This document shows positions 1,550 through 32,706 of a stretch of 34,568 nucleotides of DNA, in pieces. The position numbers and the translations under genes were made by a program. The stretch is from a virus. Taxonomy: Duplodnaviria > Heunggongvirae > Uroviricota > Caudoviricetes. Every line of letters begins with the position of its first letter. The first letter of the stretch is position 1. The notes under the pieces are model-generated. The model had not been told where the DNA came from and ran no database searches. It saw only the letters and a program-made list of their open reading frames with translations. The stretch covers positions 1 to 34,568 of IMG/VR virus record IMGVR_UViG_2740892214_000019; one strand, 5' to 3'.

Positions 1550-1566
1550 TTTGGTGGAGAAAGTTG

Positions 1567-1932
1567 ATGCGTGATATTCAGATGGTTCTGGAGCGTTGGG
1601 GGGCATGGGCGGCGAGTGATAGTTCAGGCGTTGATTATTCACCTATAGCCGCTGGGTTTAAGGGACTTCTTCCCTATACAAGCAAGAAACGCTTGGCTTG
1701 TTCGGATAGTGATGCCTTAATTATTGAAGGTTGTCTTGCTCGTCTAAAGCAAAAAAAGCCAGATGAGCACTCGCTGCTTGTGGCACATTATTTATACAGA
1801 ATATCCAAGCGTAAGATTGCAAAGGTGCGTGGAAAGGATGAAAAATTGGTACGCATAGAAATACAACTAGCCGAAGGATTTATTGATGGTTGCCTTTCAA
1901 TGTTGGATGTTAACCTTGAAATGGACGCTTAG
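1567..1932 (+). CDS. Late-gene antiterminator Q (Q82/QuuD family)
   Basis: N-terminus MRDIQMVLERWGAWAA and overall length closely resemble E. coli QuuD and phage 82 Q as I recall them. First ATG is at 1567; the track's 1564 is a TTG. Confidence 0.8.
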   Translation: MRDIQMVLERWGAWAASDSSGVDYSPIAAGFKGLLPYTSKKRLACSDSDALIIEGCLARLKQKKPDEHSLLVAHYLYRISKRKIAKVRGKDEKLVRIEIQLAEGFIDGCLSMLDVNLEMDA

Positions 1933-1938
1933 GGTTGC

Positions 1939-1968
1939 ACAGGTTGGCCCCATATGAGGCCAACCTGT
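1939..1968. terminator. Perfect 11-bp inverted repeat (ACAGGTTGGCC, 8-nt loop, GGCCAACCTGT), no U-tract
   Basis: Read directly; lies between the Q stop and the 3' end of the minus-strand cassette. Likely bidirectional attenuator or RNA 3'-end stabiliser. Confidence 0.35.
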
Positions 1969-2417
1969 CACAAGTGGGGGAAGATTTTTCGTAACACTAA
2001 CCAACACCTTCCGAAGGTATATAGCGAAATTATAAGGGAGGATAAGCCTAACAGTATGAATAGGAAATCAATAGGTTTGCCCGCAACAATAACATCATCA
2101 GGTAGAAACATCGCTATCAATGGAAATATACATGCGACGATGAGAGTTAACCCTGTTGAAAGTAATCGATTTACCAGAGTTGGTAACACGTTGTTTTGCT
2201 TAAGGGCATTAATTGCTCCTTCCTTATCGCTGTTTGCACTACTAAATATAGATATTGCAGCCAGAACAAAACCAAACAGGATGCCTGATATAGTCGAGAG
2301 CACCCCCGCTGTTGTGAGTACGTCAGCATGCTTCATCGGTTTAAACAGTTTTGTCGCTGCATAGGTCAACAGAATCCAGAGGACGCATTTCCAGAGAAAA
2401 GTGGCTAATTCTCTCAT
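1968..2417 (-). CDS. Small integral membrane protein, about four predicted TM helices (second gene of moron cassette)
   Basis: Four hydrophobic stretches of about 20 aa by eye. Start preferred at the internal Met at 2417 (MRELAT...) because GGAGGA sits about 6 nt upstream; the track start is 2429. AT-rich by eye. Confidence 0.6.
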   Translation of the reverse strand: MRELATFLWKCVLWILLTYAATKLFKPMKHADVLTTAGVLSTISGILFGFVLAAISIFSSANSDKEGAINALKQNNVLPTLVNRLLSTGLTLIVACIFPLIAMFLPDDVIVAGKPIDFLFILLGLSSLIISLYTFGRCWLVLRKIFPHL

Positions 2418-2438
2418 TGTGTCCTCCATGCTTGGTTA

Positions 2439-3380
2439 TTAGTCTCTGCTAGCGAGCTCATACTGTGCAAGATAGTTCGCGTTATCAATTTTAGCAGATA
2501 TCATCGCCGTTCTGATATCAGAATCGGATGGATAACCGCTTTTGACAATGATTGTCTTTGTACTGACCAATACTTGGTCAAGTAGACTTTTGGGCGTTCT
2601 ATTGGATGGCTCTGTTACATCAATTTTTTTAATTTTTAGACCTCCAGAACCTTTTGGAAAAAGTTCAAGTAGTTCCTTAATAGCATCGGTGACAGAAGTT
2701 TTTAGATAGTTAAACCCTTGTTTTTTCGGGCGAATCCGACCTCGCATATTTAATCTTAGATGCGACCCGCCCATACCAACAACCATGTCAATAATTTCAT
2801 TAGCTAAAGGGTTTTTAATCTTATAATTAGCTTTGTTAAAGTTTCTTGGAGCAGCAACTATAAGATCGAAACTACGTAGGATATTTCCGTCCTCAAGCAG
2901 TTCCTTCATGCTCTCTTGTTTCCAAATGGCTTCAAAAGTGACGCTTTTTAAATCAGTTTTGTTATACAAAATGAATGCCAGATCATTTACTTTGGGCCCT
3001 ATATGGTTGAGGGTCATAGCTAATAAGTCCGTTTCGTAGTAATAGATAAAATATGTTCTTTCAACTACAGAATCTTTATCATTTAAAGGAATTGTTCTCT
3101 CACTACCTGTAGCATCCTCGATGAACGGTAGTAGGCATTCCCTTCTCCACGATACGTAACCAAAGTAACATTGCAGTGTGGTATCTTTTTGAAGAATAAC
3201 TAACTTTAACCCTCGATTTGGGGTGTCTGTTGTGTAAGTTATTGGAAAAGTTTCAGTATCTGCTGTGGTCATTTGCTCAAAGGCTAGTTTTGCAGCAGAT
3301 GTGCCATCTTTTTTGCTTCCATTACCAGTGAAAAAACCAACTCTCACTCGCCTAGTTTTATTCTTATTTTCTGTACTCAT
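2439..3380 (-). CDS. Hypothetical soluble Lys/Arg-rich protein, 313 aa (first gene of moron cassette)
   Basis: Long ORF with AT-rich codon usage unlike the flanking phage genes; stop is 9 nt upstream of the membrane-protein ORF, so operon-like. No family recognised. Confidence 0.65.
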   Translation of the reverse strand: MSTENKNKTRRVRVGFFTGNGSKKDGTSAAKLAFEQMTTADTETFPITYTTDTPNRGLKLVILQKDTTLQCYFGYVSWRRECLLPFIEDATGSERTIPLNDKDSVVERTYFIYYYETDLLAMTLNHIGPKVNDLAFILYNKTDLKSVTFEAIWKQESMKELLEDGNILRSFDLIVAAPRNFNKANYKIKNPLANEIIDMVVGMGGSHLRLNMRGRIRPKKQGFNYLKTSVTDAIKELLELFPKGSGGLKIKKIDVTEPSNRTPKSLLDQVLVSTKTIIVKSGYPSDSDIRTAMISAKIDNANYLAQYELASRD

Positions 3381-3395
3381 TATCGATCCGAAATA

Positions 3396-3425
3396 ATTTT
3401 AGCAACCGTGTGAAAAATACAACAA
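3396..3425 (-). promoter_or_regulatory. Putative sigma70 promoter for the cassette
   Basis: On the minus strand TTGTTG/TTGTAT then TAAAAT upstream of the 3380 start. Weak, by-eye match only. Confidence 0.2.
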
Positions 3426-3502
3426 AAAAAAGAGGAAATCATTAGCGCGGTCCGCAAAAAACATTGTAATCTGTTAAGAGTGGTTACTTCGCCACACAGC
3501 TT

Positions 3503-3535
3503 AAACCCGCCGTCGAGCGGGTTTTGTCGTTTCTG
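3503..3535 (+). terminator. tR'-like intrinsic terminator of the short late-promoter leader (6S-type) RNA
   Basis: AAACCCGC, 6-nt loop, GCGGGTTT followed by TGTCGTTTCTG, about 140 nt upstream of the holin gene; the position matches lambdoid PR'-qut-tR'. Confidence 0.5.
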
Positions 3536-5016: not shown

Positions 5017-5124
5017 GGTTATATAGCTAGATCGGAATTGGCGATTCATATATCGGAAATAGTTGGTTAAGAATTTTCTGGAATGATTGTATGCTTTTAC
5101 AACCTATATCGAAGTTCATGTTGG

Positions 5125-5994
5125 ATGAATTTTATGCAAAACGTACAGCCGCTATCTCTGGTAACTACTTTAGTAATTTTGAGGTCTAATGGAGAGTCAA
5201 AGTCGTTAGGTACTGGGTTCTTTTATCAACATAGCAATGGTTTCATTTTCCTTGCAACTAACTATCATGTAATAACTGGAATCAGCCCATCCGAAAGGGG
5301 TGTAAAGCCATTTATAGGCGATAGTATTGATATTCAGCTGAGAGATAAAACCGGAAAACTATTCAAACATACGATGCCTCTGTTTAAAGATGGTTCACCG
5401 CTGTGGTTGGAGCACCCCACAGATAAAGAGGCAGACATTATCTTGATGCCTTTGCCTCAAGAGTTGTTTGTAAACACAGGAGTAAAAGTAGTCTCAAAAA
5501 CAACGACACTGCCTAATGTCCAGATAAACCCCTCATCTCCTGTTGTAATGATTGGATATCCTCATGGTTATCATGACACGACTCACTACCTTCCAATATG
5601 GAAAACAGGAAGCTTAGCGAGTGAGCCAGATATCGATTTCGATGGGAAGAAATTAATAGTTGTCGATATTTCTGCTTTCCCTGGAATGTCAGGCTCTCCG
5701 GCATTCTATGTCACGCACAGTGGTTATCTTACAAAAGAAGGGAATATGATCATGGATATGGGAATGAAAATTCATTTCCTTGGCGTTTATGCAAGTATGC
5801 AAATGCTAAACAGTGATCTTTTCTTAGAACAAGTCGTTAGTGCTGCAGAATACAAAGTGTCGCATAGTGAATCTTTGCAACTAGGGCATGTCTGGAAAGC
5901 TGAGTTACTTGAAGAGATAGCTGCGACATCTAGTCCGATTGCAACCACACCATCTCAATTTCAAAGTAATAGCAAATTCTTATTTAAGTACTGA
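5125..5994 (+). CDS. Standalone trypsin-like (chymotrypsin-fold) serine protease, no signal peptide
   Basis: His motif LATNYHV, candidate Asp in KEADIIL, Ser motif GMSGSP, in H-D-S order. AT-rich by eye. Start chosen at the ATG at 5125 rather than the track's 5083. Confidence 0.65.
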   Translation: MNFMQNVQPLSLVTTLVILRSNGESKSLGTGFFYQHSNGFIFLATNYHVITGISPSERGVKPFIGDSIDIQLRDKTGKLFKHTMPLFKDGSPLWLEHPTDKEADIILMPLPQELFVNTGVKVVSKTTTLPNVQINPSSPVVMIGYPHGYHDTTHYLPIWKTGSLASEPDIDFDGKKLIVVDISAFPGMSGSPAFYVTHSGYLTKEGNMIMDMGMKIHFLGVYASMQMLNSDLFLEQVVSAAEYKVSHSESLQLGHVWKAELLEEIAATSSPIATTPSQFQSNSKFLFKY

Positions 5995-25121: not shown

Positions 25122-25642
25122 TATGCGGCCCTCACGATGTAGTTAAATGCGACGTTTCGCGGGCGGTTTTCTGGTGCTGTAGGCACAACTCTGGAAGCAT
25201 CAAAACTACCAGACAAAGGTCTTGTATCAGCGCCACCTCCAGCACTAGTGATAGGTTGTATAGTTTCGTTACTCCCCGCAAAGGCACCTGACAATTGACT
25301 TAAAGCCCCAGCTGTTGAGCCATTATTCAATACCGAAATGATACCGGTGATATTTCTAATTGCATCGCCCTGAGAGGAAAGCAAACTCCTCGCAGAATCA
25401 ATCCCGCGTCCGTCATCCCAACCGCGTAGAAACTCACCACGTAAATCAGGCAATTTATTTGTCGGATAAACTTTTGCCAGTTCCGGGTATTCTTCAGCAG
25501 AAAAAGCCGCACCATTGCATTTCAGCCAGCCTGTTGGCGGAGTGGCTGAAGGCCACGGAACAGGCACACCAACGGGTAATGCCGAACCTTCTCCCAAACC
25601 AACGTTTATGAAAATGCAGAGATAACGGGCAACTGGCATCAT
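25121..25642 (-). CDS. Alternative tail fibre C-terminal segment, expressed only after inversion
   Basis: Contains the fibre-tip motif PVGVPVPWP...GWLKCNGAAFS..YPELAKVYP; the ORF's apparent N-terminus crosses the right crossover site, so it has no independent start. Confidence 0.7.
   Translation of the reverse strand: MMPVARYLCIFINVGLGEGSALPVGVPVPWPSATPPTGWLKCNGAAFSAEEYPELAKVYPTNKLPDLRGEFLRGWDDGRGIDSARSLLSSQGDAIRNITGIISVLNNGSTAGALSQLSGAFAGSNETIQPITSAGGGADTRPLSGSFDASRVVPTAPENRPRNVAFNYIVRAA
25589..25614. repeat. Right inversion crossover site (gix/hix/pix-like)
   Basis: TTCTCCCAAACCAACGTTTATGAAAA, a 26-bp imperfect dyad resembling Hin/Gin sites, about 50 bp upstream of the invertase start. 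Confidence 0.6.
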
Positions 25643-25663
25643 CTCCGGTTTTTATTCAGGGGG

Positions 25664-26263
25664 ATGCTCATGCTTATTGGCTATGTACGCGTGTCAACAA
25701 ATGACCAGAACACGGAATTGCAGCGTAACGCGCTGGAGTGTGCAGGATGTGAGCTGATTTTTGAGGATAAAATCAGCGGCACGAAGTCCGACCGACCGGG
25801 ACTGAAAAAACTGCTCAGAACATTATCAGCAGGTGACACTCTGGTGGTCTGGAAGCTGGACAGGCTGGGGCGTAGTATGCGGCATCTGGTCATTCTGGTT
25901 GAGGAGCTGCGCGAACGCGGCGTTAATTTTCGCAGCCTGACGGATGCTATTGATACCAGCACGCCGATGGGGCGCTTTTTCTTTCATGTGATGGGTGCCC
26001 TGGCTGAAATGGAGCGAGAACTCATTGTCGAGCGGACACGCGCCGGACTGGAAGCGGCCAGAGCCAAAGGTCGTATTGGTGGCAGACGACCGAAACTCAC
26101 CACGAGTGAGTGGGAGCAGGTCGGACGGTTGCTGGCTGCGGGGGAATCTCGTCAACGTGTGGCGCTGATTTTTGATATTGGCCTGTCCACGCTCTATAAA
26201 AAATTCCCCTCATCAGCGACAAAGAATAAATTGTGTCATCCCTTAGCCAACCGGGACAAATAG
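25664..26263 (+). CDS. Serine DNA invertase (Gin/Pin/Hin/Cin family)
   Basis: N-terminal LIGYVRVST(N)DQ catalytic motif and C-terminal helix-turn-helix; small resolvase/invertase size. Start may be the second ATG at 25670. Confidence 0.9.
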   Translation: MLMLIGYVRVSTNDQNTELQRNALECAGCELIFEDKISGTKSDRPGLKKLLRTLSAGDTLVVWKLDRLGRSMRHLVILVEELRERGVNFRSLTDAIDTSTPMGRFFFHVMGALAEMERELIVERTRAGLEAARAKGRIGGRRPKLTTSEWEQVGRLLAAGESRQRVALIFDIGLSTLYKKFPSSATKNKLCHPLANRDK

Positions 26264-26322
26264 CCTGACATCTCCGGCACAACTGAAAATACCACTCACC
26301 CATTAACCACGGAGTTAAACGG

Positions 26323-27513
26323 ATGAGTGACTATCATCACGGCGTGCAGGTGCTGGAGATTAACGACGGCACCCGCGTCATTTCCACCGTATCCACTGCC
26401 ATTGTCGGCATGGTCTGCACGGCCAGCGATGCGGATGCGGAAACCTTCCCCCTCAATAAACCTGTGCTGATTACCAATGTGCAGAACGCAATTGCAAAGG
26501 CCGGTAAAAAAGGCACGCTGGCGGCATCGTTGCAGGCCATCGCTGACCAGTCAAAACCGGTCACCGTTGTCGTGCGCGTGGAAGACGGCACCGGTGATGA
26601 CGAGGAAACGAAACTCGCGCAGACCGTTTCCAATATCATCGGCACCACCGACGAAAACGGTCAGTACACCGGACTGAAAGCCCTGCTGGCGGCGGAGTCG
26701 GTAACTGGTGTTAAACCGCGTATTCTCGGCGTGCCGGGACTGGACACCAAAGAGGTGGCGGTTGCACTGGCATCAGTCTGTCAGAAGCTGCGCGCTTTCG
26801 GGTATATCAGCGCATGGGGCTGTAAAACCATTTCCGAGGTGAAAGCCTACCGCCAGAATTTCAGCCAGCGTGAGCTGATGGTCATCTGGCCGGATTTCCT
26901 CGCATGGGATACGGTCGCCAGTACCACCGCCACCGCGTATGCCACCGCCCGTGCGCTGGGTCTGCGCGCTAAAATCGACCAGGAGCAGGGCTGGCATAAA
27001 ACGCTGTCCAACGTCGGGGTGAACGGTGTTACCGGAATCAGCGCGTCCGTATTCTGGGATTTGCAGGAGTCCGGCACCGATGCTGACCTGCTTAACGAGT
27101 CAGGCGTCACAACGCTGATTCGCCGTGACGGTTTCCGCTTCTGGGGTAACCGTACCTGCTCTGATGACCCGCTGTTCCTCTTTGAAAACTACACCCGCAC
27201 CGCGCAGGTGCTGGCCGACACGATGGCTGAGGCGCACATGTGGGCGGTGGACAAGCCCATCACCGCAACGCTGATTCGCGACATCGTTGACGGCATCAAT
27301 GCCAAATTCCGTGAGTTGAAAACAAACGGCTATATCGTGGATGCGACCTGCTGGTTCAGCGAAGAATCCAACGATGCGGAAACCCTCAAGGCCGGAAAAC
27401 TGTATATCGACTACGACTATACACCGGTACCTCCTCTTGAAAACCTGACCCTGCGCCAGCGTATTACCGATAAATACCTGGCGAATCTGGTCACCTCGGT
27501 TAACAGCAATTAA
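26323..27513 (+). CDS. FI: P2-type tail sheath protein
   Basis: 396 aa; near-identical along its length to P2 gpFI as I recall it. Confidence 0.93.
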   Translation: MSDYHHGVQVLEINDGTRVISTVSTAIVGMVCTASDADAETFPLNKPVLITNVQNAIAKAGKKGTLAASLQAIADQSKPVTVVVRVEDGTGDDEETKLAQTVSNIIGTTDENGQYTGLKALLAAESVTGVKPRILGVPGLDTKEVAVALASVCQKLRAFGYISAWGCKTISEVKAYRQNFSQRELMVIWPDFLAWDTVASTTATAYATARALGLRAKIDQEQGWHKTLSNVGVNGVTGISASVFWDLQESGTDADLLNESGVTTLIRRDGFRFWGNRTCSDDPLFLFENYTRTAQVLADTMAEAHMWAVDKPITATLIRDIVDGINAKFRELKTNGYIVDATCWFSEESNDAETLKAGKLYIDYDYTPVPPLENLTLRQRITDKYLANLVTSVNSN

Positions 27514-27525
27514 GGAGCCTGACCG

Positions 27526-28044
27526 ATGGCAATGCCGCGCAAACTCAAGTTAATGAACGTCTTTCTGAACGGCTACAGCTATCAGGGCGTTGCAAAGTCC
27601 GTCACGCTGCCAAAACTGACCCGTAAGCTCGAAAACTATCGCGGTGCGGGGATGAACGGCAGCGCACCGGTAGACCTCGGCCTTGATGACGATGCGCTGT
27701 CAATGGAGTGGTCGCTCGGTGGCTTCCCGGATTCGGTTATCTGGGAGCTTTACGCCGCAACCGGTGTGGATGCCGTACCGATTCGTTTTGCAGGCTCTTA
27801 CCAGCGCGACGATACCGGCGAAACGGTGGCCGTCGAGGTGGTCATGCGTGGACGTCAGAAAGAAATCGACACCGGCGAGGGCAAACAGGGAGAAGACACC
27901 GAGTCGAAAATCTCCGTGGTCTGCACCTATTTCCGGCTGACGATGGACGGTAAGGAGCTGGTCGAAATCGACACCATCAACATGATTGAGAAGGTGAACG
28001 GCGTCGACCGGCTGGAGCAACACCGCCGCAATATCGGCCTGTGA
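27526..28044 (+). CDS. FII: P2-type tail tube protein
   Basis: 172 aa; matches P2 gpFII. Confidence 0.93.
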   Translation: MAMPRKLKLMNVFLNGYSYQGVAKSVTLPKLTRKLENYRGAGMNGSAPVDLGLDDDALSMEWSLGGFPDSVIWELYAATGVDAVPIRFAGSYQRDDTGETVAVEVVMRGRQKEIDTGEGKQGEDTESKISVVCTYFRLTMDGKELVEIDTINMIEKVNGVDRLEQHRRNIGL

Positions 28045-28100
28045 TTTTCATCCGGTCAGTCTGGCTGACCGGTTAACCCCGATTCAGAAGTGAGAAAACC

Positions 28101-28376
28101 ATGAACAAAGAAAACGTCATTACCCTGGACAATCCGGTCAAACGTGGTGAGCAGGTTATCGAACAGATCACGCTGATGAAACCCAATGCCGGGACGCTGC
28201 GCGGTGTCAGTCTGGCTGCAGTCGCGAACTCCGAAGTCGATGCACTGATTAAAGTGCTGCCGCGCATGACGGCACCGATGCTGACCGAGCAGGAAGTCGC
28301 CGCGCTGGAACTGCCTGACCTTGTGGCGCTGGCCGGTAAGGTGGTCGGTTTTTTGTCGCCGAACTCGGTGCAGTGA
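28101..28376 (+). CDS. E: P2-type tail assembly chaperone
   Basis: 91 aa; slippery T TTT TTG at 28349-28355 near the 3' end. Confidence 0.9.
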   Translation: MNKENVITLDNPVKRGEQVIEQITLMKPNAGTLRGVSLAAVANSEVDALIKVLPRMTAPMLTEQEVAALELPDLVALAGKVVGFLSPNSVQ

Positions 28377-28528
28377 CGTTTCCGAAAAATCTCTCGGTCG
28401 ATGACCTGATGGCGGATGTGGCAGTGATATTTCACTGGCCGCCATCAGAACTGTATCCCATGAGCCTGACCGAACTCATCACATGGCGCGAAAAGGCGCT
28501 CCGGCGAAGTGGAAACACGAATGAGTAA
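28101..28528 (+). CDS. E': P2-type E+E' programmed -1 frameshift product
   Basis: After the slip the -1 frame is open to TAA at 28526-28528, overlapping the T start. Confidence 0.75.
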
Positions 28529-30968
28529 CAATGTAAAATTACAGGTATTGCTCAGGGCTGTTGACCAGGCATCCCGCCCGTTTAAATCCATCCGCACAGC
28601 GAGCAAGTCGCTGTCGGGGGATATCCGGGAAACACAAAAATCACTGCGCGAGCTGAACGGTCACGCATCCCGTATTGAGGGATTCCGCAAGACCAGCGCA
28701 CAGCTCGCCGTGACTGGTCATGCACTTGAAAAGGCTCGGCAGGAAGCAGAAGCCCTTGCCACACAGTTTAAAAACACCGAACGTCCGACCCGTGCTCAGG
28801 CGAAAGTGCTGGAATCCGCAAAGCGTGCGGCGGAGGACTTACAGGCGAAATATAACCGCCTGACGGATTCCGTTAAACGCCAGCAGCGGGAACTGGCCGC
28901 TGTGGGAATTAATACCCGCAATCTTGCACATGATGAGCAGGGACTGAAAAACCGTATCAGTGAAACCACCGCACAGCTTAACCGTCAGCGCGACGCGCTG
29001 GCGCGTGTCAGTGCGCAACAGGCAAAACTTAACGCAGTCAAACAGCGTTATCAGGCCGGAAAGGAGCTGGCCGGAAATATGGCCTCAGTGGGCGCTGCCG
29101 GTGTGGGGATTGCAGCGGCGGGAACGATGGCCGGTGTTAAGCTACTGATGCCCGGTTATGAGTTTGCGCAGAAAAACTCAGAATTGCAGGCCGTGCTAGG
29201 TGTGGCAAAAGACTCCGCCGAAATGGCCGCACTCCGCAAGCAGGCGCGCCAGCTCGGCGACAATACCGCCGCCTCGGCAGATGATGCAGCCGGTGCGCAG
29301 ATTATTATTGCGAAAGCCGGTGGGGATGTTGATGCCATTCAGGCGGCAACGCCGGTCACGCTGAACATGGCGCTGGCGAACCGCCGCACGATGGAAGAAA
29401 ACGCCGCCCTGTTGATGGGGATGAAATCCGCCTTTCAGCTTTCAAACGATAAGGTCGCTCATATCGGGGATGTTCTCTCCATGACGATGAACAAAACCGC
29501 CGCCGATTTTGACGGTATGAGCGATGCGCTGACCTATGCTGCACCTGTGGCAAAAAATGCCGGTGTCAGCATTGAAGAAACCGCCGCAATGGTCGGGGCG
29601 CTGCATGATGCAAAAATTACCGGTTCAATGGCGGGGACGGGAAGCCGTGCCGTGTTAAGTCGCCTGCAGGCACCGACGGGAAAAGCATGGGATGCACTCA
29701 AAGAGCTTGGCGTGAAAACCTCAGACAGTAAGGGGAATACCCGACCAGTATTTACCATTCTGAAAGAAATGCAGGCCAGTTTTGAGAAAAACCGGCTCGG
29801 TACTGCCCAGCAGGCTGAATACATGAAAACCATTTTCGGGGAGGAGGCCAGCTCAGCCGCCGCCGTGCTGATGACTGCCGCCTCAACCGGAAAGCTGGAC
29901 AAACTGACCGCTGCGTTTAAAGCCTCAGACGGGAAGACCGCCGAGCTGGTAAATATCATGCAGGACAACCTCGGCGGTGACTTTAAGGAGTTTCAGTCCG
30001 CTTATGAGGCGGTGGGGACAGACCTGTTTGACCAGCAGGAAGGCGCGCTGCGTAAGCTCACGCAGACGGCCACAAAGTATGTGTTAAAACTCGACGGCTG
30101 GATACAGAAAAACAAATCACTGGCGTCAACCATTGGCCTCATTGCCGGTGGCGCGCTGGCGCTTACTGGCATCATCGGTGCAATTGGTCTTGTTGCCTGG
30201 CCGGTTATCACCGGCATCAATGCCATCATCGCGGCAGCAGGCGCAATGGGGGCAATCTTCACGACGGTTGGTAGTGCCGTTATGACGGCTATCGGGGCGA
30301 TTAGCTGGCCGGTTGTGGCCGTGGTGGCTGCAATTGTCGCCGGGGCGTTGCTTATCCGTAAATACTGGGAGCCTGTCAGCGCATTCTTTGGCGGTGTGGT
30401 GGAAGGGCTGAAAGCGGCATTTGCGCCGGTGGGGGAACTGTTCACGCCACTTAAGCCGCTGTTTGACTGGCTGGGTGAAAAGTTACAGGCCGCGTGGCAG
30501 TGGTTTAAAAACCTGATTGCCCCCGTCAAAGCCACCCAGGACACCCTGAACCGTTGCCGTGACACGGGTGTCATGTTCGGGCAGGCACTGGCTGACGCGT
30601 TGATGCTGCCGCTTAATGCGTTCAACAAACTGCGCAGCGGTATTGACTGGGTACTGGAAAAACTCGGCGTTATCAACAAAGAGTCAGGCACGCTTGACCA
30701 GACCGCCGCCAGAACTCATGCCGCCACGTATGGCACCGGTGGTTATATTCCGGCGGCCAGCTCTTATGCAGGTTATCAGGCTTATCAGCCGGTCACGGCA
30801 CCGGCTGGCCGCTCTTATGTGGACCAGAGTAAAAACGAATATCACATCAACCTGACGGGCGGTACTGCGCCGGGGACACAGCTCGACCGCCAGTTACAGG
30901 ATGCACTCGAAAAATACGAGCGGGATAAACGTGCGCGCGCCCGTGCCAGCATGATGCATGACGGTTAA
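28521..30968 (+). CDS. T: P2-type tail tape measure protein
   Basis: Matches P2 gpT starting MSNNVKLQ; the track's 28509 start is a GTG, the ATG is at 28521. Confidence 0.9.
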   Translation: MSNNVKLQVLLRAVDQASRPFKSIRTASKSLSGDIRETQKSLRELNGHASRIEGFRKTSAQLAVTGHALEKARQEAEALATQFKNTERPTRAQAKVLESAKRAAEDLQAKYNRLTDSVKRQQRELAAVGINTRNLAHDEQGLKNRISETTAQLNRQRDALARVSAQQAKLNAVKQRYQAGKELAGNMASVGAAGVGIAAAGTMAGVKLLMPGYEFAQKNSELQAVLGVAKDSAEMAALRKQARQLGDNTAASADDAAGAQIIIAKAGGDVDAIQAATPVTLNMALANRRTMEENAALLMGMKSAFQLSNDKVAHIGDVLSMTMNKTAADFDGMSDALTYAAPVAKNAGVSIEETAAMVGALHDAKITGSMAGTGSRAVLSRLQAPTGKAWDALKELGVKTSDSKGNTRPVFTILKEMQASFEKNRLGTAQQAEYMKTIFGEEASSAAAVLMTAASTGKLDKLTAAFKASDGKTAELVNIMQDNLGGDFKEFQSAYEAVGTDLFDQQEGALRKLTQTATKYVLKLDGWIQKNKSLASTIGLIAGGALALTGIIGAIGLVAWPVITGINAIIAAAGAMGAIFTTVGSAVMTAIGAISWPVVAVVAAIVAGALLIRKYWEPVSAFFGGVVEGLKAAFAPVGELFTPLKPLFDWLGEKLQAAWQWFKNLIAPVKATQDTLNRCRDTGVMFGQALADALMLPLNAFNKLRSGIDWVLEKLGVINKESGTLDQTAARTHAATYGTGGYIPAASSYAGYQAYQPVTAPAGRSYVDQSKNEYHINLTGGTAPGTQLDRQLQDALEKYERDKRARARASMMHDG

Positions 30969-30982
30969 GGAGGTGACGAAAA

Positions 30983-31462
30983 ATGATGCTCGCGTTAGGT
31001 ATGTTTGTTTTTATGCGCCAGACGCTGCCACACCAGACCATGCAGCGTGAATCAGATTATCGCTGGCCGTCAAATTCCCGTATCGGTAAACGGGATGCCT
31101 ACCAGTTTCTCGGTGTGGGTGAGGAAAACATTACGCTTGCCGGTGTGCTTTATCCTGAACTGACCGGCGGAAAGCTGACGATGACCACGCTCAGACTGAT
31201 GGCAGAGGAAGGCCGGGCGTGGCCGTTGCTGGATGGCACCGGAATGATTTACGGCATGTATGTCATCAGCAGGGTGAGTGAAACAGGGAGTATTTTCTTT
31301 GCAGACGGCACACCCCGGAAAATTGATTTTACGCTGTCGCTCACCCGCGTTGATGAATCACTGGCCGCGCTTTATGGCGATATCGGTAAACAGGCGGAGT
31401 CGCTCATCGGTAAGGCCGGCAGTCTGGCGACCAGATTCACAGGTATGATGGGGGCGGGATAA
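30983..31462 (+). CDS. U: P2-type tail protein
   Basis: Matches P2 gpU in size and sequence. Confidence 0.9.
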   Translation: MMLALGMFVFMRQTLPHQTMQRESDYRWPSNSRIGKRDAYQFLGVGEENITLAGVLYPELTGGKLTMTTLRLMAEEGRAWPLLDGTGMIYGMYVISRVSETGSIFFADGTPRKIDFTLSLTRVDESLAALYGDIGKQAESLIGKAGSLATRFTGMMGAG

Positions 31463-32625
31463 TGCTGGATGCGCTGACATTTGATGCAGGCAGTACGCTG
31501 ACGCCGGATTACATGCTGATGCTCGACAGCAGGGATATTACCGGCAATATCAGCGACCGTCTGATGAGCATGACTCTGACGGATAACCGGGGCTTTGAAG
31601 CTGACCAGCTTGATATTGAACTGAACGATGCCGACGGGCAGGTCGGGCTGCCGGTTCGTGGCGCTGTCCTGACGGTGTATATCGGCTGGAAAGGTTTTGC
31701 CCTGGTATGCAAAGGGAAATTTACCGTTGATGAGGTTGAACACCGGGGCGCACCGGATGTGGTCACCATCCGCGCCCGGAGTGCAGATTTTCGTGGGACG
31801 CTCAATTCCCGCCGTGAAGGCTCCTGGCATGACACCACGCTCGGTGCGATTGTTGAGGCGATAGCCTCCCGTAACAGGCTGGAAGCCAGTGTCGCTCCGT
31901 CACTGGCCGGAATTAAAATCCCGCACATCGACCAGTCGCAGGAGTCTGATGCAAAATTCCTGACCCGCCTTGCTGAACGCAACGGCGGTGAGGTGTCGGT
32001 AAAAATGGGAAAACTGTTGTTTCTCAAAGCGGGGCAGGGGGTGACGGCCAGCGGTAAAAAAATCCCGCAGATTACCATCACCCGCAGCGACGGCGACCGT
32101 CATCATTTTGCGATTGCTGACCGTGGAGCCTATACCGGCGTAACGGCAAAGTGGCTTCACACCAAAGACCCGAAGCCGCAAAAGCAGAAGGTAAAACTGA
32201 AACGCAAAAAGAAAGAAAAACACCTGCGCGCACTGGAGCACCCAAAAGCGAAACCGGTCAGGCAGAAGAAAGCGCCAAAAGTACCGGAAGCGCGCGAAGG
32301 TGAATATATGGCCGGTGAGGCTGACAATGTTTTTGCCCTGACCACGGTATATGCCACGAAAGCGCAGGCCATGCGCGCCGCTCAGGCGAAGTGGGATAAA
32401 CTGCAACGGGGCGTTGCGGAGTTCTCCATCAGCCTGGCTACCGGTCGGGCAGATATTTACACGGAAACACCGGTTAAAGTGTCAGGCTTTAAGCGCGTCA
32501 TAGACGAGCAGGACTGGACAATCACTAAGGTGACACATTTTCTGAATAATAGCGGCTTCACGACGTCCCTGGAGCTTGAGGTCAGGCTTTCTGATGTGGA
32601 GTACGAAACAGAAGATGATGAGTGA
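31462..32625 (+). CDS. D: P2-type late control / tail protein
   Basis: 387 aa; matches P2 gpD. Confidence 0.9.
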   Translation: MLDALTFDAGSTLTPDYMLMLDSRDITGNISDRLMSMTLTDNRGFEADQLDIELNDADGQVGLPVRGAVLTVYIGWKGFALVCKGKFTVDEVEHRGAPDVVTIRARSADFRGTLNSRREGSWHDTTLGAIVEAIASRNRLEASVAPSLAGIKIPHIDQSQESDAKFLTRLAERNGGEVSVKMGKLLFLKAGQGVTASGKKIPQITITRSDGDRHHFAIADRGAYTGVTAKWLHTKDPKPQKQKVKLKRKKKEKHLRALEHPKAKPVRQKKAPKVPEAREGEYMAGEADNVFALTTVYATKAQAMRAAQAKWDKLQRGVAEFSISLATGRADIYTETPVKVSGFKRVIDEQDWTITKVTHFLNNSGFTTSLELEVRLSDVEYETEDDE

Positions 32626-32706
32626 TGTTTTTATTTTATCTGTTTGTTTTATAAGGATAATTTAACTAAAATGGCACCATCAACAAAACCGGAAGAGGTG
32701 CTCGCG

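What the first reader, a model, noticed from the sequence alone, without database searches (positions are those of the whole stretch)
1939..3425. AT-rich antisense two-gene cassette between Q and the late promoter: candidate uncharacterised phage-exclusion or defence system
Two tightly linked minus-strand genes (2439-3380, 313 aa, soluble and Lys/Arg-rich; 1968-2417, about 149 aa, about four TM helices) sit in the classic lambdoid moron slot. They are transcribed against all flanking phage genes and are visibly more AT-rich than them, which suggests horizontally acquired cargo expressed in the lysogen. A soluble roughly 300-aa protein followed by a roughly 150-aa four-helix membrane protein recalls lambda RexA/RexB and Kiwa (KwaA/KwaB, where gene order is reversed), but I recognise no sequence family in either protein. 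An 11-bp hairpin at 1939-1968 bounds one side, and the tR'-like terminator at 3503-3535 implies the Q-dependent late promoter lies on the far side, so the cassette is spliced between Q and its target without disrupting late transcription.
Basis: partly seen in the sequence, partly recalled or inferred. Interest (0 to 1): 0.85.

Follow-up and report, generated by a model that had tools for sequence, protein, structure and literature searches.

The report
RexAB-type exclusion cassette beside Q
The two antisense genes between the phage Q gene and the late promoter are a very divergent relative of phage lambda's RexA/RexB pair (a soluble sensor plus a small four-helix membrane protein), so this is most likely a prophage-carried anti-phage exclusion module of a known kind, in a gene family (DUF6731) that I found no paper linking to Rex.

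The parts
2439..3380 (-). RexA-like gene: 313 aa, soluble, basic; a divergent DUF6731 member
1968..2417 (-). RexB-like gene: 149 aa, four transmembrane helices
   Evidence: Hydropathy and the AF2 model (pLDDT 78) show four long helices at positions that match lambda RexB. The family alignment A3 is homologous to the partners of distant DUF6731 genes, A7 (hhalign probability 98.6%, E 6.5e-16). 9 of 14 A7 members hit the PADLOC RexB HMM, best E 2.3e-6, in register. A7 against the RexB family gives E 1e-4. The merged partner profile against RexB scores 31.8, above all 200 block shuffles. Rank 2 in the BFVD fold search is a 165-aa Sbash protein, the length of the RexB-like gp31.
2418..2438 (-). 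21-nt intergenic spacer with a GGAGGA ribosome-binding site for the small gene
   Evidence: Read directly from the sequence. Nearly all full-length homologues are 144-149 aa and align from this start.
1939..1968 (.). Perfect 11-bp inverted repeat between the convergent stop codons of Q and the small gene. Probably a terminator or RNA-stabilising hairpin for both transcripts.
   Evidence: dG -27.3 kcal/mol on the minus-strand RNA, z -4.6. No U tract follows, so the terminator function is inferred.
3396..3425 (-). Candidate promoter of the cassette. A T-tract precedes an extended -10-like TG (3424-3423) and TGTATT (3421-3416). An alternative -10 is TAAAAT (3401-3396).
   Evidence: The motif T-tract + TGnTAnATT is conserved upstream of the large gene in five alleles from E. 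coli, phage cdtI and Pectobacterium. The consensus scan found no canonical sigma-70 site here, so this is weak evidence.
3436..3534 (+). Conserved late-promoter unit (pR'-like promoter, invariant palindrome, tR'-like terminator). It bounds the cassette but is not part of it.
   Evidence: The same element directly follows the Q stop codon in the empty-site prophage N25 and lies to the right of different cargo in LH13-b. It contains TTAGCG (3442-3447)-N17-TGTAAT (3465-3470), read from the sequence. It also contains the palindrome GCGGTCCGC at 3447-3455, invariant in all copies aligned. The terminator hairpin is at 3503-3524, followed by a T-rich tail. Related phages match 3426-3500 at or next to their Q genes.
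1564..1932 (+). Antiterminator Q gene: the left boundary, convergent with the cassette
   Evidence: PF06530 E 1.4e-51.

Best explanation
The cassette is a RexAB-type two-component module carried as prophage cargo. The 313-aa protein is a structural homologue of lambda RexA, a cytoplasmic and probably dimeric DNA-binding sensor. The 149-aa protein is the RexB-like four-helix inner-membrane partner. By analogy with the characterised systems (lambda RexAB, P. putida RexABpp, Sbash gp30/31, CarolAnn gp44/43), the pair would be made in the lysogen from its own promoter. That promoter runs antisense to, and independently of, Q-dependent late transcription. On infection by another phage, the A protein would sense an early phage product or DNA-protein intermediate and activate the B protein. 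B would then permeabilise or depolarise the membrane and arrest growth, aborting the infection. Shown here: the gene pair, its insertion between Q and pR', the RexA fold, the four-TM partner, the pairing in every locus examined, the homology of the partner family to RexB-like proteins, and carriage in prophages of unrelated types. Inferred: expression in the lysogen, the A-B interaction, DNA binding, membrane damage and the exclusion phenotype.
For: 2. Weak collinear sequence signal between DUF6731 and RexA. hhalign gives E 0.0034 over 248 columns, and the score exceeds all 150 composition-preserving shuffles.
3. Architecture. In all 24 loci with readable downstream sequence, the DUF6731 gene is followed by a co-oriented four-TM gene of 132-165 aa. 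The gene is adjacent or overlapping, and the overlap is typically 38 nt; Sbash gp30/31 overlap by 41 nt. One further locus (L006) had no downstream gene called.
4. The partner is RexB-like. A7 against A3 gives E 6.5e-16. The PADLOC RexB model hits 9 of 14 A7 members, best E 2.3e-6. The TM segment positions match RexB. A shared motif covers TM2 and the loop after it (AGTxxxxxIAALxxL...RxL..N[LM]R.TGHY against RRLAKIREYGYM).
5. Cargo behaviour. The island is AT-rich. The same Q|pR' slot is empty in N25. In LH13-b it holds an HNH-like nuclease that matches PADLOC candidate PDC-M68A. It also holds 47%- and roughly 23%-identical versions of the pair. The pair also sits next to integrases, inside Mu-like morphogenesis modules and in a PM2-like Vibrio element.
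6. The large protein is basic (pI 9.2; RexA 8.6).
Confidence: 0.65

Rival explanations
1. The pair mainly regulates the prophage's own development rather than defence. The RexA-like DNA-binding protein would bias the lysogenic-lytic decision, as lambda RexA does at the CI/Cro switch, with the membrane partner modulating it. Any exclusion would be a by-product.
For: Adams et al. show that RexA binds DNA non-specifically and stabilises the lytic state independently of RexB, and they suggest that T4rII exclusion may be incidental (PMC11077077). The cassette's candidate promoter lies about 20 bp from, and back to back with, the late-promoter unit. The cassette is also convergent with Q.
Against: The same pair occurs in unrelated prophage types at unrelated positions: next to integrases, inside Mu-like head modules, and in a PM2-like element. 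That is hard to reconcile with a role tied to one regulatory circuit. Sibling prophages lack it or carry a nuclease instead. It is compositionally foreign.
Confidence: 0.15
2. The module works in the Butters style, or as an addiction module. The soluble A protein would be the toxic effector and the membrane protein would sequester or neutralise it. The pair would then act as a toxin-antitoxin-like system that stabilises the prophage or fires when B is lost.
For: In mycobacteriophage Butters the RexA-like gp30 is the effector and the membrane protein gp31 restrains it (summarised in PMC12894663). The genes here are tightly coupled, and overlapping in distant relatives, as is typical for stoichiometric pairs.
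Against: Three of the four other described Rex-like systems use B as the effector. The distant partners are similar to lambda RexB over TM2 and the loop after it. The corresponding central cytoplasmic loop is needed for defence in Sbash gp31 (PMC6426596). No toxin or nuclease motif was found in the large protein.
Confidence: 0.1
3. The small membrane protein is a lysis-timing or superinfection-exclusion factor connected with the neighbouring holin/endolysin genes. The resemblance of the large protein to RexA would then reflect a shared fold and not a shared function.
For: The cassette lies about 300 bp from the holin gene, and Sbash gp30/31 also lie just after a lysis cassette. Fold searches with small helical membrane proteins are unspecific, and all E-values are >= 0.01.
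Against: The cassette is on the opposite strand and outside the Q-dependent late operon. The pairing with DUF6731 holds in all 24 loci with readable downstream sequence, most of which have no lysis genes nearby. The window already has a complete holin-endolysin-spanin set.
Confidence: 0.05

Closest known systems
Phage lambda RexA/RexB (PDB 8TWQ; Pfam PF15969/PF15968; PADLOC RexA/RexB)
Pseudomonas putida RexABpp (PP_5643/PP_5644; Sci Rep 2026, PMC12894663)
   Different: RexApp-His is 37.5 kDa and RexBpp is longer, with a mutation mapped at Y181. The pair lies downstream of the cI-like repressor. I could not obtain its sequence, so whether it is a DUF6731 or PDC-M67 member is untested.
Mycobacteriophage Sbash gp30/gp31 and Gordonia phage CarolAnn gp44/gp43
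   Same: Each is a two-gene defence module with a cytoplasmic A protein and a four-TM B protein. gp30 and gp31 overlap by 41 nt, close to the 38-nt overlap typical of DUF6731 pairs. A 165-aa Sbash protein, the length of gp31, is rank 2 in the viral fold search with the window's small protein (probability 1.0, TM 0.50). Like the window's pair, they are not next to the repressor; Sbash's pair follows the lysis cassette.
   Different: hhalign finds no sequence similarity. A is 372 aa. The hosts are Actinobacteria.
PADLOC candidate system PDC-M67 (A+B)
   Same: At least 6 of the 118 wider DUF6731 relatives hit PDC-M67A models (best E 1.6e-8). A few partner proteins hit PDC-M67B weakly (E 0.005-0.07). 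It is probably a neighbouring branch of the same superfamily.
   Different: Neither window protein hits either model. The PDC-M67B profile is 217 positions long, against 149 aa here. PDC systems are untested candidates.
RdgC and the kinetochore proteins Iml3/Chl4/CENP-N
   Different: They score much lower than RexA, have no membrane partner and have different biology.
Kiwa (KwaA/KwaB)
   Same: A membrane protein paired with a soluble protein.
   Different: The gene order is reversed. Neither window protein hits any PADLOC model, KwaA/KwaB included. Only 1 of 50 relatives of the small protein touches KwaA (E 0.0016). The fold of the large protein is RexA-like.

Membership tests
RexAB-type two-component exclusion systems | The soluble A component has the RexA fold | tested here: met
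RexAB-type two-component exclusion systems | The A component matches the RexA sequence models (Pfam PF15969, PADLOC RexA) | tested here: not met
   No hit at E <= 1 for the window protein or for 118 relatives. The lambda control scores 1e-97 and 9e-110. Only a weak hhalign signal exists: E 0.0034, above all shuffles.
RexAB-type two-component exclusion systems | The B component is a small inner-membrane protein (about 140-180 aa) with four TM helices | tested here: met
   149 aa with four hydrophobic segments at 4-22, 39-57, 85-103 and 118-136, against RexB's 8-26, 48-66, 84-102 and 116-134. The AF2 model shows four long helices.
RexAB-type two-component exclusion systems | The B component is homologous to RexB by sequence | tested here: inconclusive
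   The direct test is negative. The transitive test is positive. The window family is homologous to the distant partners at E 6.5e-16. 9 of 14 distant partners hit PADLOC RexB, best E 2.3e-6. Profile against profile gives E 1e-4, above all 200 shuffles.
RexAB-type two-component exclusion systems | A and B are encoded as an adjacent co-oriented pair, A first, and inherited together | tested here: met
   The pair is present in all 24 loci with readable downstream sequence, from 99% down to about 20% identity of the large protein. One further locus (L006) had no downstream gene called.
RexAB-type two-component exclusion systems | Carried by a temperate phage or prophage and expressed in the lysogen | not testable with these tools
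   Prophage carriage is shown. Expression is only inferred, from the antisense orientation outside the late operon and from a conserved extended -10-like motif.
RexAB-type two-component exclusion systems | A dimerises and binds DNA; A activates B; the membrane is damaged; superinfecting phage is excluded | not testable with these tools
Pfam PF20505 (DUF6731) | Homology to the DUF6731 family | tested here: met
   The window protein itself gives no Pfam hit. It is, however, 61% identical to P0022, which carries PF20505. 23 of 40 close relatives and 105 of 118 wider relatives match the model. A profile built from its family recovers 172 clusters.
Kiwa (KwaA/KwaB) | A KwaB (DUF4868) soluble protein together with a KwaA membrane protein | tested here: not met
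   Neither window protein hits any PADLOC model, KwaA/KwaB included. The large protein's fold is RexA-like.
PADLOC PDC-M67 | Matches to the PDC-M67A and PDC-M67B models | tested here: not met
   The window proteins give no hit. Only distant relatives match: at least 6 of 118 for A and a few weak hits for B.

The most novel reading that the evidence does not exclude
The position is functional and not accidental. The cassette's promoter lies back to back with the Q-dependent late promoter, and the cassette converges on Q. Q-region transcription during induction would then silence the cassette by transcriptional interference, giving a self-disarming switch. In addition, or instead, the RexA-like DNA-binding protein might act on the adjacent late-promoter/Q-loading region to gate the prophage's own late gene expression. 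That would extend RexA's known role at the CI/Cro switch to the late switch. The recurrence of three very divergent versions of the pair at this same slot could reflect that coupling rather than a neutral insertion hotspot.
Probability: 0.12. Interest if true: 0.7.

Novelty: new member of a known kind. Interest (0 to 1): 0.5.

Why it matters
A 2026 paper counts only five described RexAB-like systems, and how Rex works is still unresolved 70 years after Benzer. If this assignment holds, it adds a whole family. DUF6731 plus its unnamed four-TM partner comprises about 172 clusters at 50% identity. The family occurs across Enterobacterales and other Proteobacteria, including Gammaproteobacteria such as Halomonas, Vibrio and Stenotrophomonas. 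It is carried by lambdoid, Mu-like and PM2-like temperate elements, and it is present in 1.3% of complete E. coli genomes and in the inducible phage cdtI. The assignment gives a Pfam DUF a testable function. It supplies many natural variants for finding conserved sensor and effector residues, for example the TM2-plus-loop motif shared with RexB. It shows that current defence-finder models miss these pairs. It also documents the Q|pR' junction as a cargo slot that holds alternative defence-like genes.

Tried and rejected
- Sequence-only routes gave nothing for the window proteins. These were PADLOC, Pfam, NCBIfam and the PDB, the last searched by sequence and by profile. PHROGs gave only unknown-function families 7651 and 8552.
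- Direct comparisons with lambda proteins were not significant. These were BLASTP of the small protein against RexB, hhalign of A3 against RexB and hhalign of A1 against RexA.
- hhalign of the two families against Sbash gp30 and gp31 was null.
- The afdb50 fold library was unavailable.
A 13-sequence subset worked.
- My first guess at the Sbash accession number was wrong. It was corrected from PMC4939774.
- Full-text searches for DUF6731 and WP_001446998 found no papers.
- Rfam found no RNA family in the window.
- The consensus promoter scan found no sigma-70 site for the cassette.
- Kiwa, a holin or lysis role, and a chance ORF pair were considered and rejected on the evidence above.

Full report
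**Observation.** The window carries two co-oriented minus-strand ORFs. One is 313 aa at 2439-3380. The other is listed mechanically as 1968-2429, 153 aa. RefSeq annotates both genes as hypothetical proteins in a near-identical E. coli prophage.

The large protein has no hydrophobic segment, is 14.4% Lys+Arg and has pI 9.2. The small protein has four hydrophobic segments, and its model has four long helices.

GC is 0.36-0.45 across 1951-3450, against 0.51-0.58 in the flanks. On a 1-kb scale this region is one of only two troughs below 0.40 in the 34.5-kb window. The neighbours are KilA-N, DUF968 and Q (PF06530) on the left, and holin, endolysin and spanin on the right, all on the plus strand. 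The 11-bp hairpin at 1939-1968 is real and strong (dG -27.3 kcal/mol, z -4.6) but has no U tract. The terminator-like hairpin at 3503-3524 is followed by a T-rich tail.

**The insertion site.** I searched E. coli genomes with a synthetic 'cassette-deleted' sequence. In strain N25 a related Q gene (74% identical DNA) is followed directly by the element homologous to window 3430-3530. That element contains promoter-like hexamers, an invariant GCGGTCCGC palindrome and the terminator. In strain LH13-b the same element lies to the right of a different antisense gene, and EC65 carries yet another.

The LH13-b gene is an HNH-like nuclease. It matches PADLOC candidate PDC-M68A (E 7.5e-27) and the nuclease domains of CBASS effectors and SduA. 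So the cassette does lie between Q and its late-promoter unit, and the slot is a variable cargo site holding defence-like genes. It lies upstream of pR', so its cargo is not Q-dependent, unlike stx-type morons.

**What the large protein is.** Sequence libraries gave no named family. PADLOC, NCBIfam and the PDB returned nothing, and PHROGs returned only the unknown-function family phrog_7651. Homologues exist across Enterobacterales, and many carry PF20505 (DUF6731). That is 23 of 40 close relatives and 105 of 118 in the wider set from an exhaustive profile search, which found 172 clusters at E <= 1e-3. The window protein is a divergent member that its own Pfam model misses. I found no literature on DUF6731.

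Foldseek saw only the CENP-N and RdgC shadow of this relationship. At the sequence level the DUF6731 profile aligns end to end with a four-sequence RexA alignment (248 columns, E 0.0034). This is weak, but the score of 27.2 exceeds all 150 local-composition shuffles (maximum 20.4) and the reversed control (14.6).

**What the small protein is.** Direct comparisons with RexB were negative, and PADLOC's RexB model does not hit it or its close relatives. The link appears through the wider family. I collected DUF6731 loci from genomes and metagenomes, including Halomonas, Stenotrophomonas, Enterobacter, Kosakonia, Rouxiella, Marinobacterium, Thiohalocapsa and Mariprofundaceae. In all 24 loci with readable downstream sequence, the DUF6731 gene is followed by a co-oriented gene of 132-165 aa with about four hydrophobic segments. 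The two genes usually overlap, typically by 38 nt. One further locus (L006) had no downstream gene called.

An alignment of 14 such distant partners (A7) is clearly homologous to the window's small-protein family (hhalign probability 98.6%, E 6.5e-16, 134 columns). Nine of the 14 hit PADLOC's RexB model in register, with best E 2.3e-6. Pfam RexB gives a sub-threshold in-register hit (E 0.051). Profile against profile versus a RexB family alignment gives E 1e-4 over TM1-TM2-loop. The merged-profile score of 31.8 exceeds all 200 block shuffles (maximum 24.3).

The TM segment positions match RexB almost exactly. In the viral fold library the second-best match of the small-protein model is a 165-aa protein of mycobacteriophage Sbash. 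That is the length of gp31, the RexB-like half of the Sbash gp30/31 defence system, whose two genes also overlap, by 41 nt. E-values in that search are weak, so I treat it as supporting evidence only.

**Distribution and behaviour.**
- The exact cassette is in 72 of 5426 complete E. coli genomes.
- A 47%-identical version occupies the same slot in other E. coli prophages, and a 45%-identical version does so in the CDT-converting phage cdtI, as orf54/orf53.
- A related version, 45% identical by the protein search, occupies the same slot in Pectobacterium prophages.
- In Enterobacter sp. RIT418 a version whose large protein is only about 23% identical to the L002 allele sits next to a related Q and DUF968.
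- Elsewhere the pair sits next to integrases, between the Mu F and Mu I genes of Mu-like prophages, and next to the integrase of a 14.6-kb PM2-like (Vinavirales) Vibrio element.

A module that moves between unrelated temperate elements and unrelated positions, always as a pair, behaves like accessory cargo that benefits the lysogen. It does not behave like a part of one phage's core circuitry.

**Mechanism.** The best-supported reading is a RexAB-type system. The soluble RexA-fold protein acts as the sensor, and the four-TM protein is the membrane effector whose activation stops growth and aborts infection. This is what has been shown for lambda RexAB, RexABpp, Sbash gp30/31 and CarolAnn gp44/43 (PMC12894663; PMC6426596).

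The fold, the architecture, the partner homology and the cargo behaviour are shown here. Expression in the lysogen, DNA binding, the A-B interaction and the phenotype are inferred.

A conserved T-tract plus TGnTAnATT motif lies upstream of the large gene in five alleles. In the window the TG is at 3424-3423 and TGTATT at 3421-3416 on the minus strand. This is a candidate extended -10 promoter, back to back with the late-promoter unit. The consensus scan found no canonical promoter.

Three rivals remain open:
- a role in the prophage's own lysis-lysogeny control, as for RexA in lambda;
- a Butters-like arrangement with the roles of A and B reversed;
- less likely, a lysis-related role for the membrane protein.

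**Verdict.** Interest 0.5. Confidence that the cassette is RexAB-type in fold and architecture is about 0.85. Confidence in the full functional explanation is 0.65.

Noticed in passing
window 5083-5994 (+): A second AT-rich cargo gene (GC 0.39) lies between the spanin genes and the HNH/terminase genes. It encodes a 303-aa trypsin-like S1 peptidase that matches PADLOC single-gene candidate PDC-S45 (E 5.8e-42; Pfam Trypsin_2 3.7e-8). Only 3 of 5426 complete E. coli genomes carry it. The sibling prophage in LD22-1 has a different 252-aa hypothetical gene at this position.
   Followed up: partly
window 26300-32700 (+), with 25584-26102: The right part of the window is 97.6% identical to the P2-like (Peduovirus) tail genes: sheath, tube, tape measure, U and D. 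The first 24 kb is an e14-like prophage with an HK97-type head and a Mu-like baseplate, and 25584-26102 resembles the pinE invertase (87%). This is either a hybrid phage or two prophages joined at the invertase region.
   Followed up: partly
L007 1981-2727 (-) (E. coli LH13-b) and L009 3018-3464 (-) (E. coli EC65): The same Q|pR' slot holds other antisense cargo in sibling prophages. One is a 248-aa HNH-like nuclease matching PDC-M68A and the nuclease domains of CBASS effectors and SduA. The other is a 148-aa protein with a single N-terminal hydrophobic segment that looks like a lipoprotein. The slot therefore looks like a defence hotspot.
   Followed up: partly
window 3447-3455 (+); also L007, L008, L040, L002, L005: The palindrome GCGGTCCGC is invariant in every copy of the late-promoter unit examined, including the empty site and the Pectobacterium prophages. 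It overlaps the -35/spacer region of the putative pR' promoter. It may be the Q-binding element of this Q family, or an operator shared by the two divergent promoters.
   Followed up: no
ON470608.1 30277-31179 and ON470622.1 15473-16375 (Escherichia phages vB_EcoS-733R5 and vB_EcoS-716R3): In these deposited phage genomes the homologue of the RexA-like gene (45% identical) is annotated as 'portal (connector) protein'. This is almost certainly a mis-annotation.
   Followed up: no
L041 1389-2896 (Vibrio phage 10N.286.54.F4_PE001, PQ189356.1): A 14.6-kb PM2-like (Vinavirales) temperate element carries the same pair directly after its integrase. The large protein is 35% identical and the small protein 31% identical to the window's. 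The module therefore crosses viral realms.
   Followed up: partly
distant DUF6731 loci L011, L014-L016, L018, L020-L022; Sbash L038 4012-4052: The A and B genes overlap by a recurrent 38 nt in many distant DUF6731 pairs and by 41 nt in Sbash gp30/31. In the window and in lambda they are separated by 21 and 15 nt. The conserved overlap suggests translational coupling that sets the A:B ratio, which is known to matter for Rex function.
   Followed up: no
RexB homologues P0280, P0285, P0287; family A3: NCBI names several RexB homologues 'biopolymer transporter ExbB'. Six members of the window's small-protein family give weak hits to ZorA (MotA/ExbB/TolQ) models (E about 0.02). This hints that RexB-like proteins may be distantly related to the MotA/ExbB ion-channel stators, but it is not significant here.
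   Followed up: no
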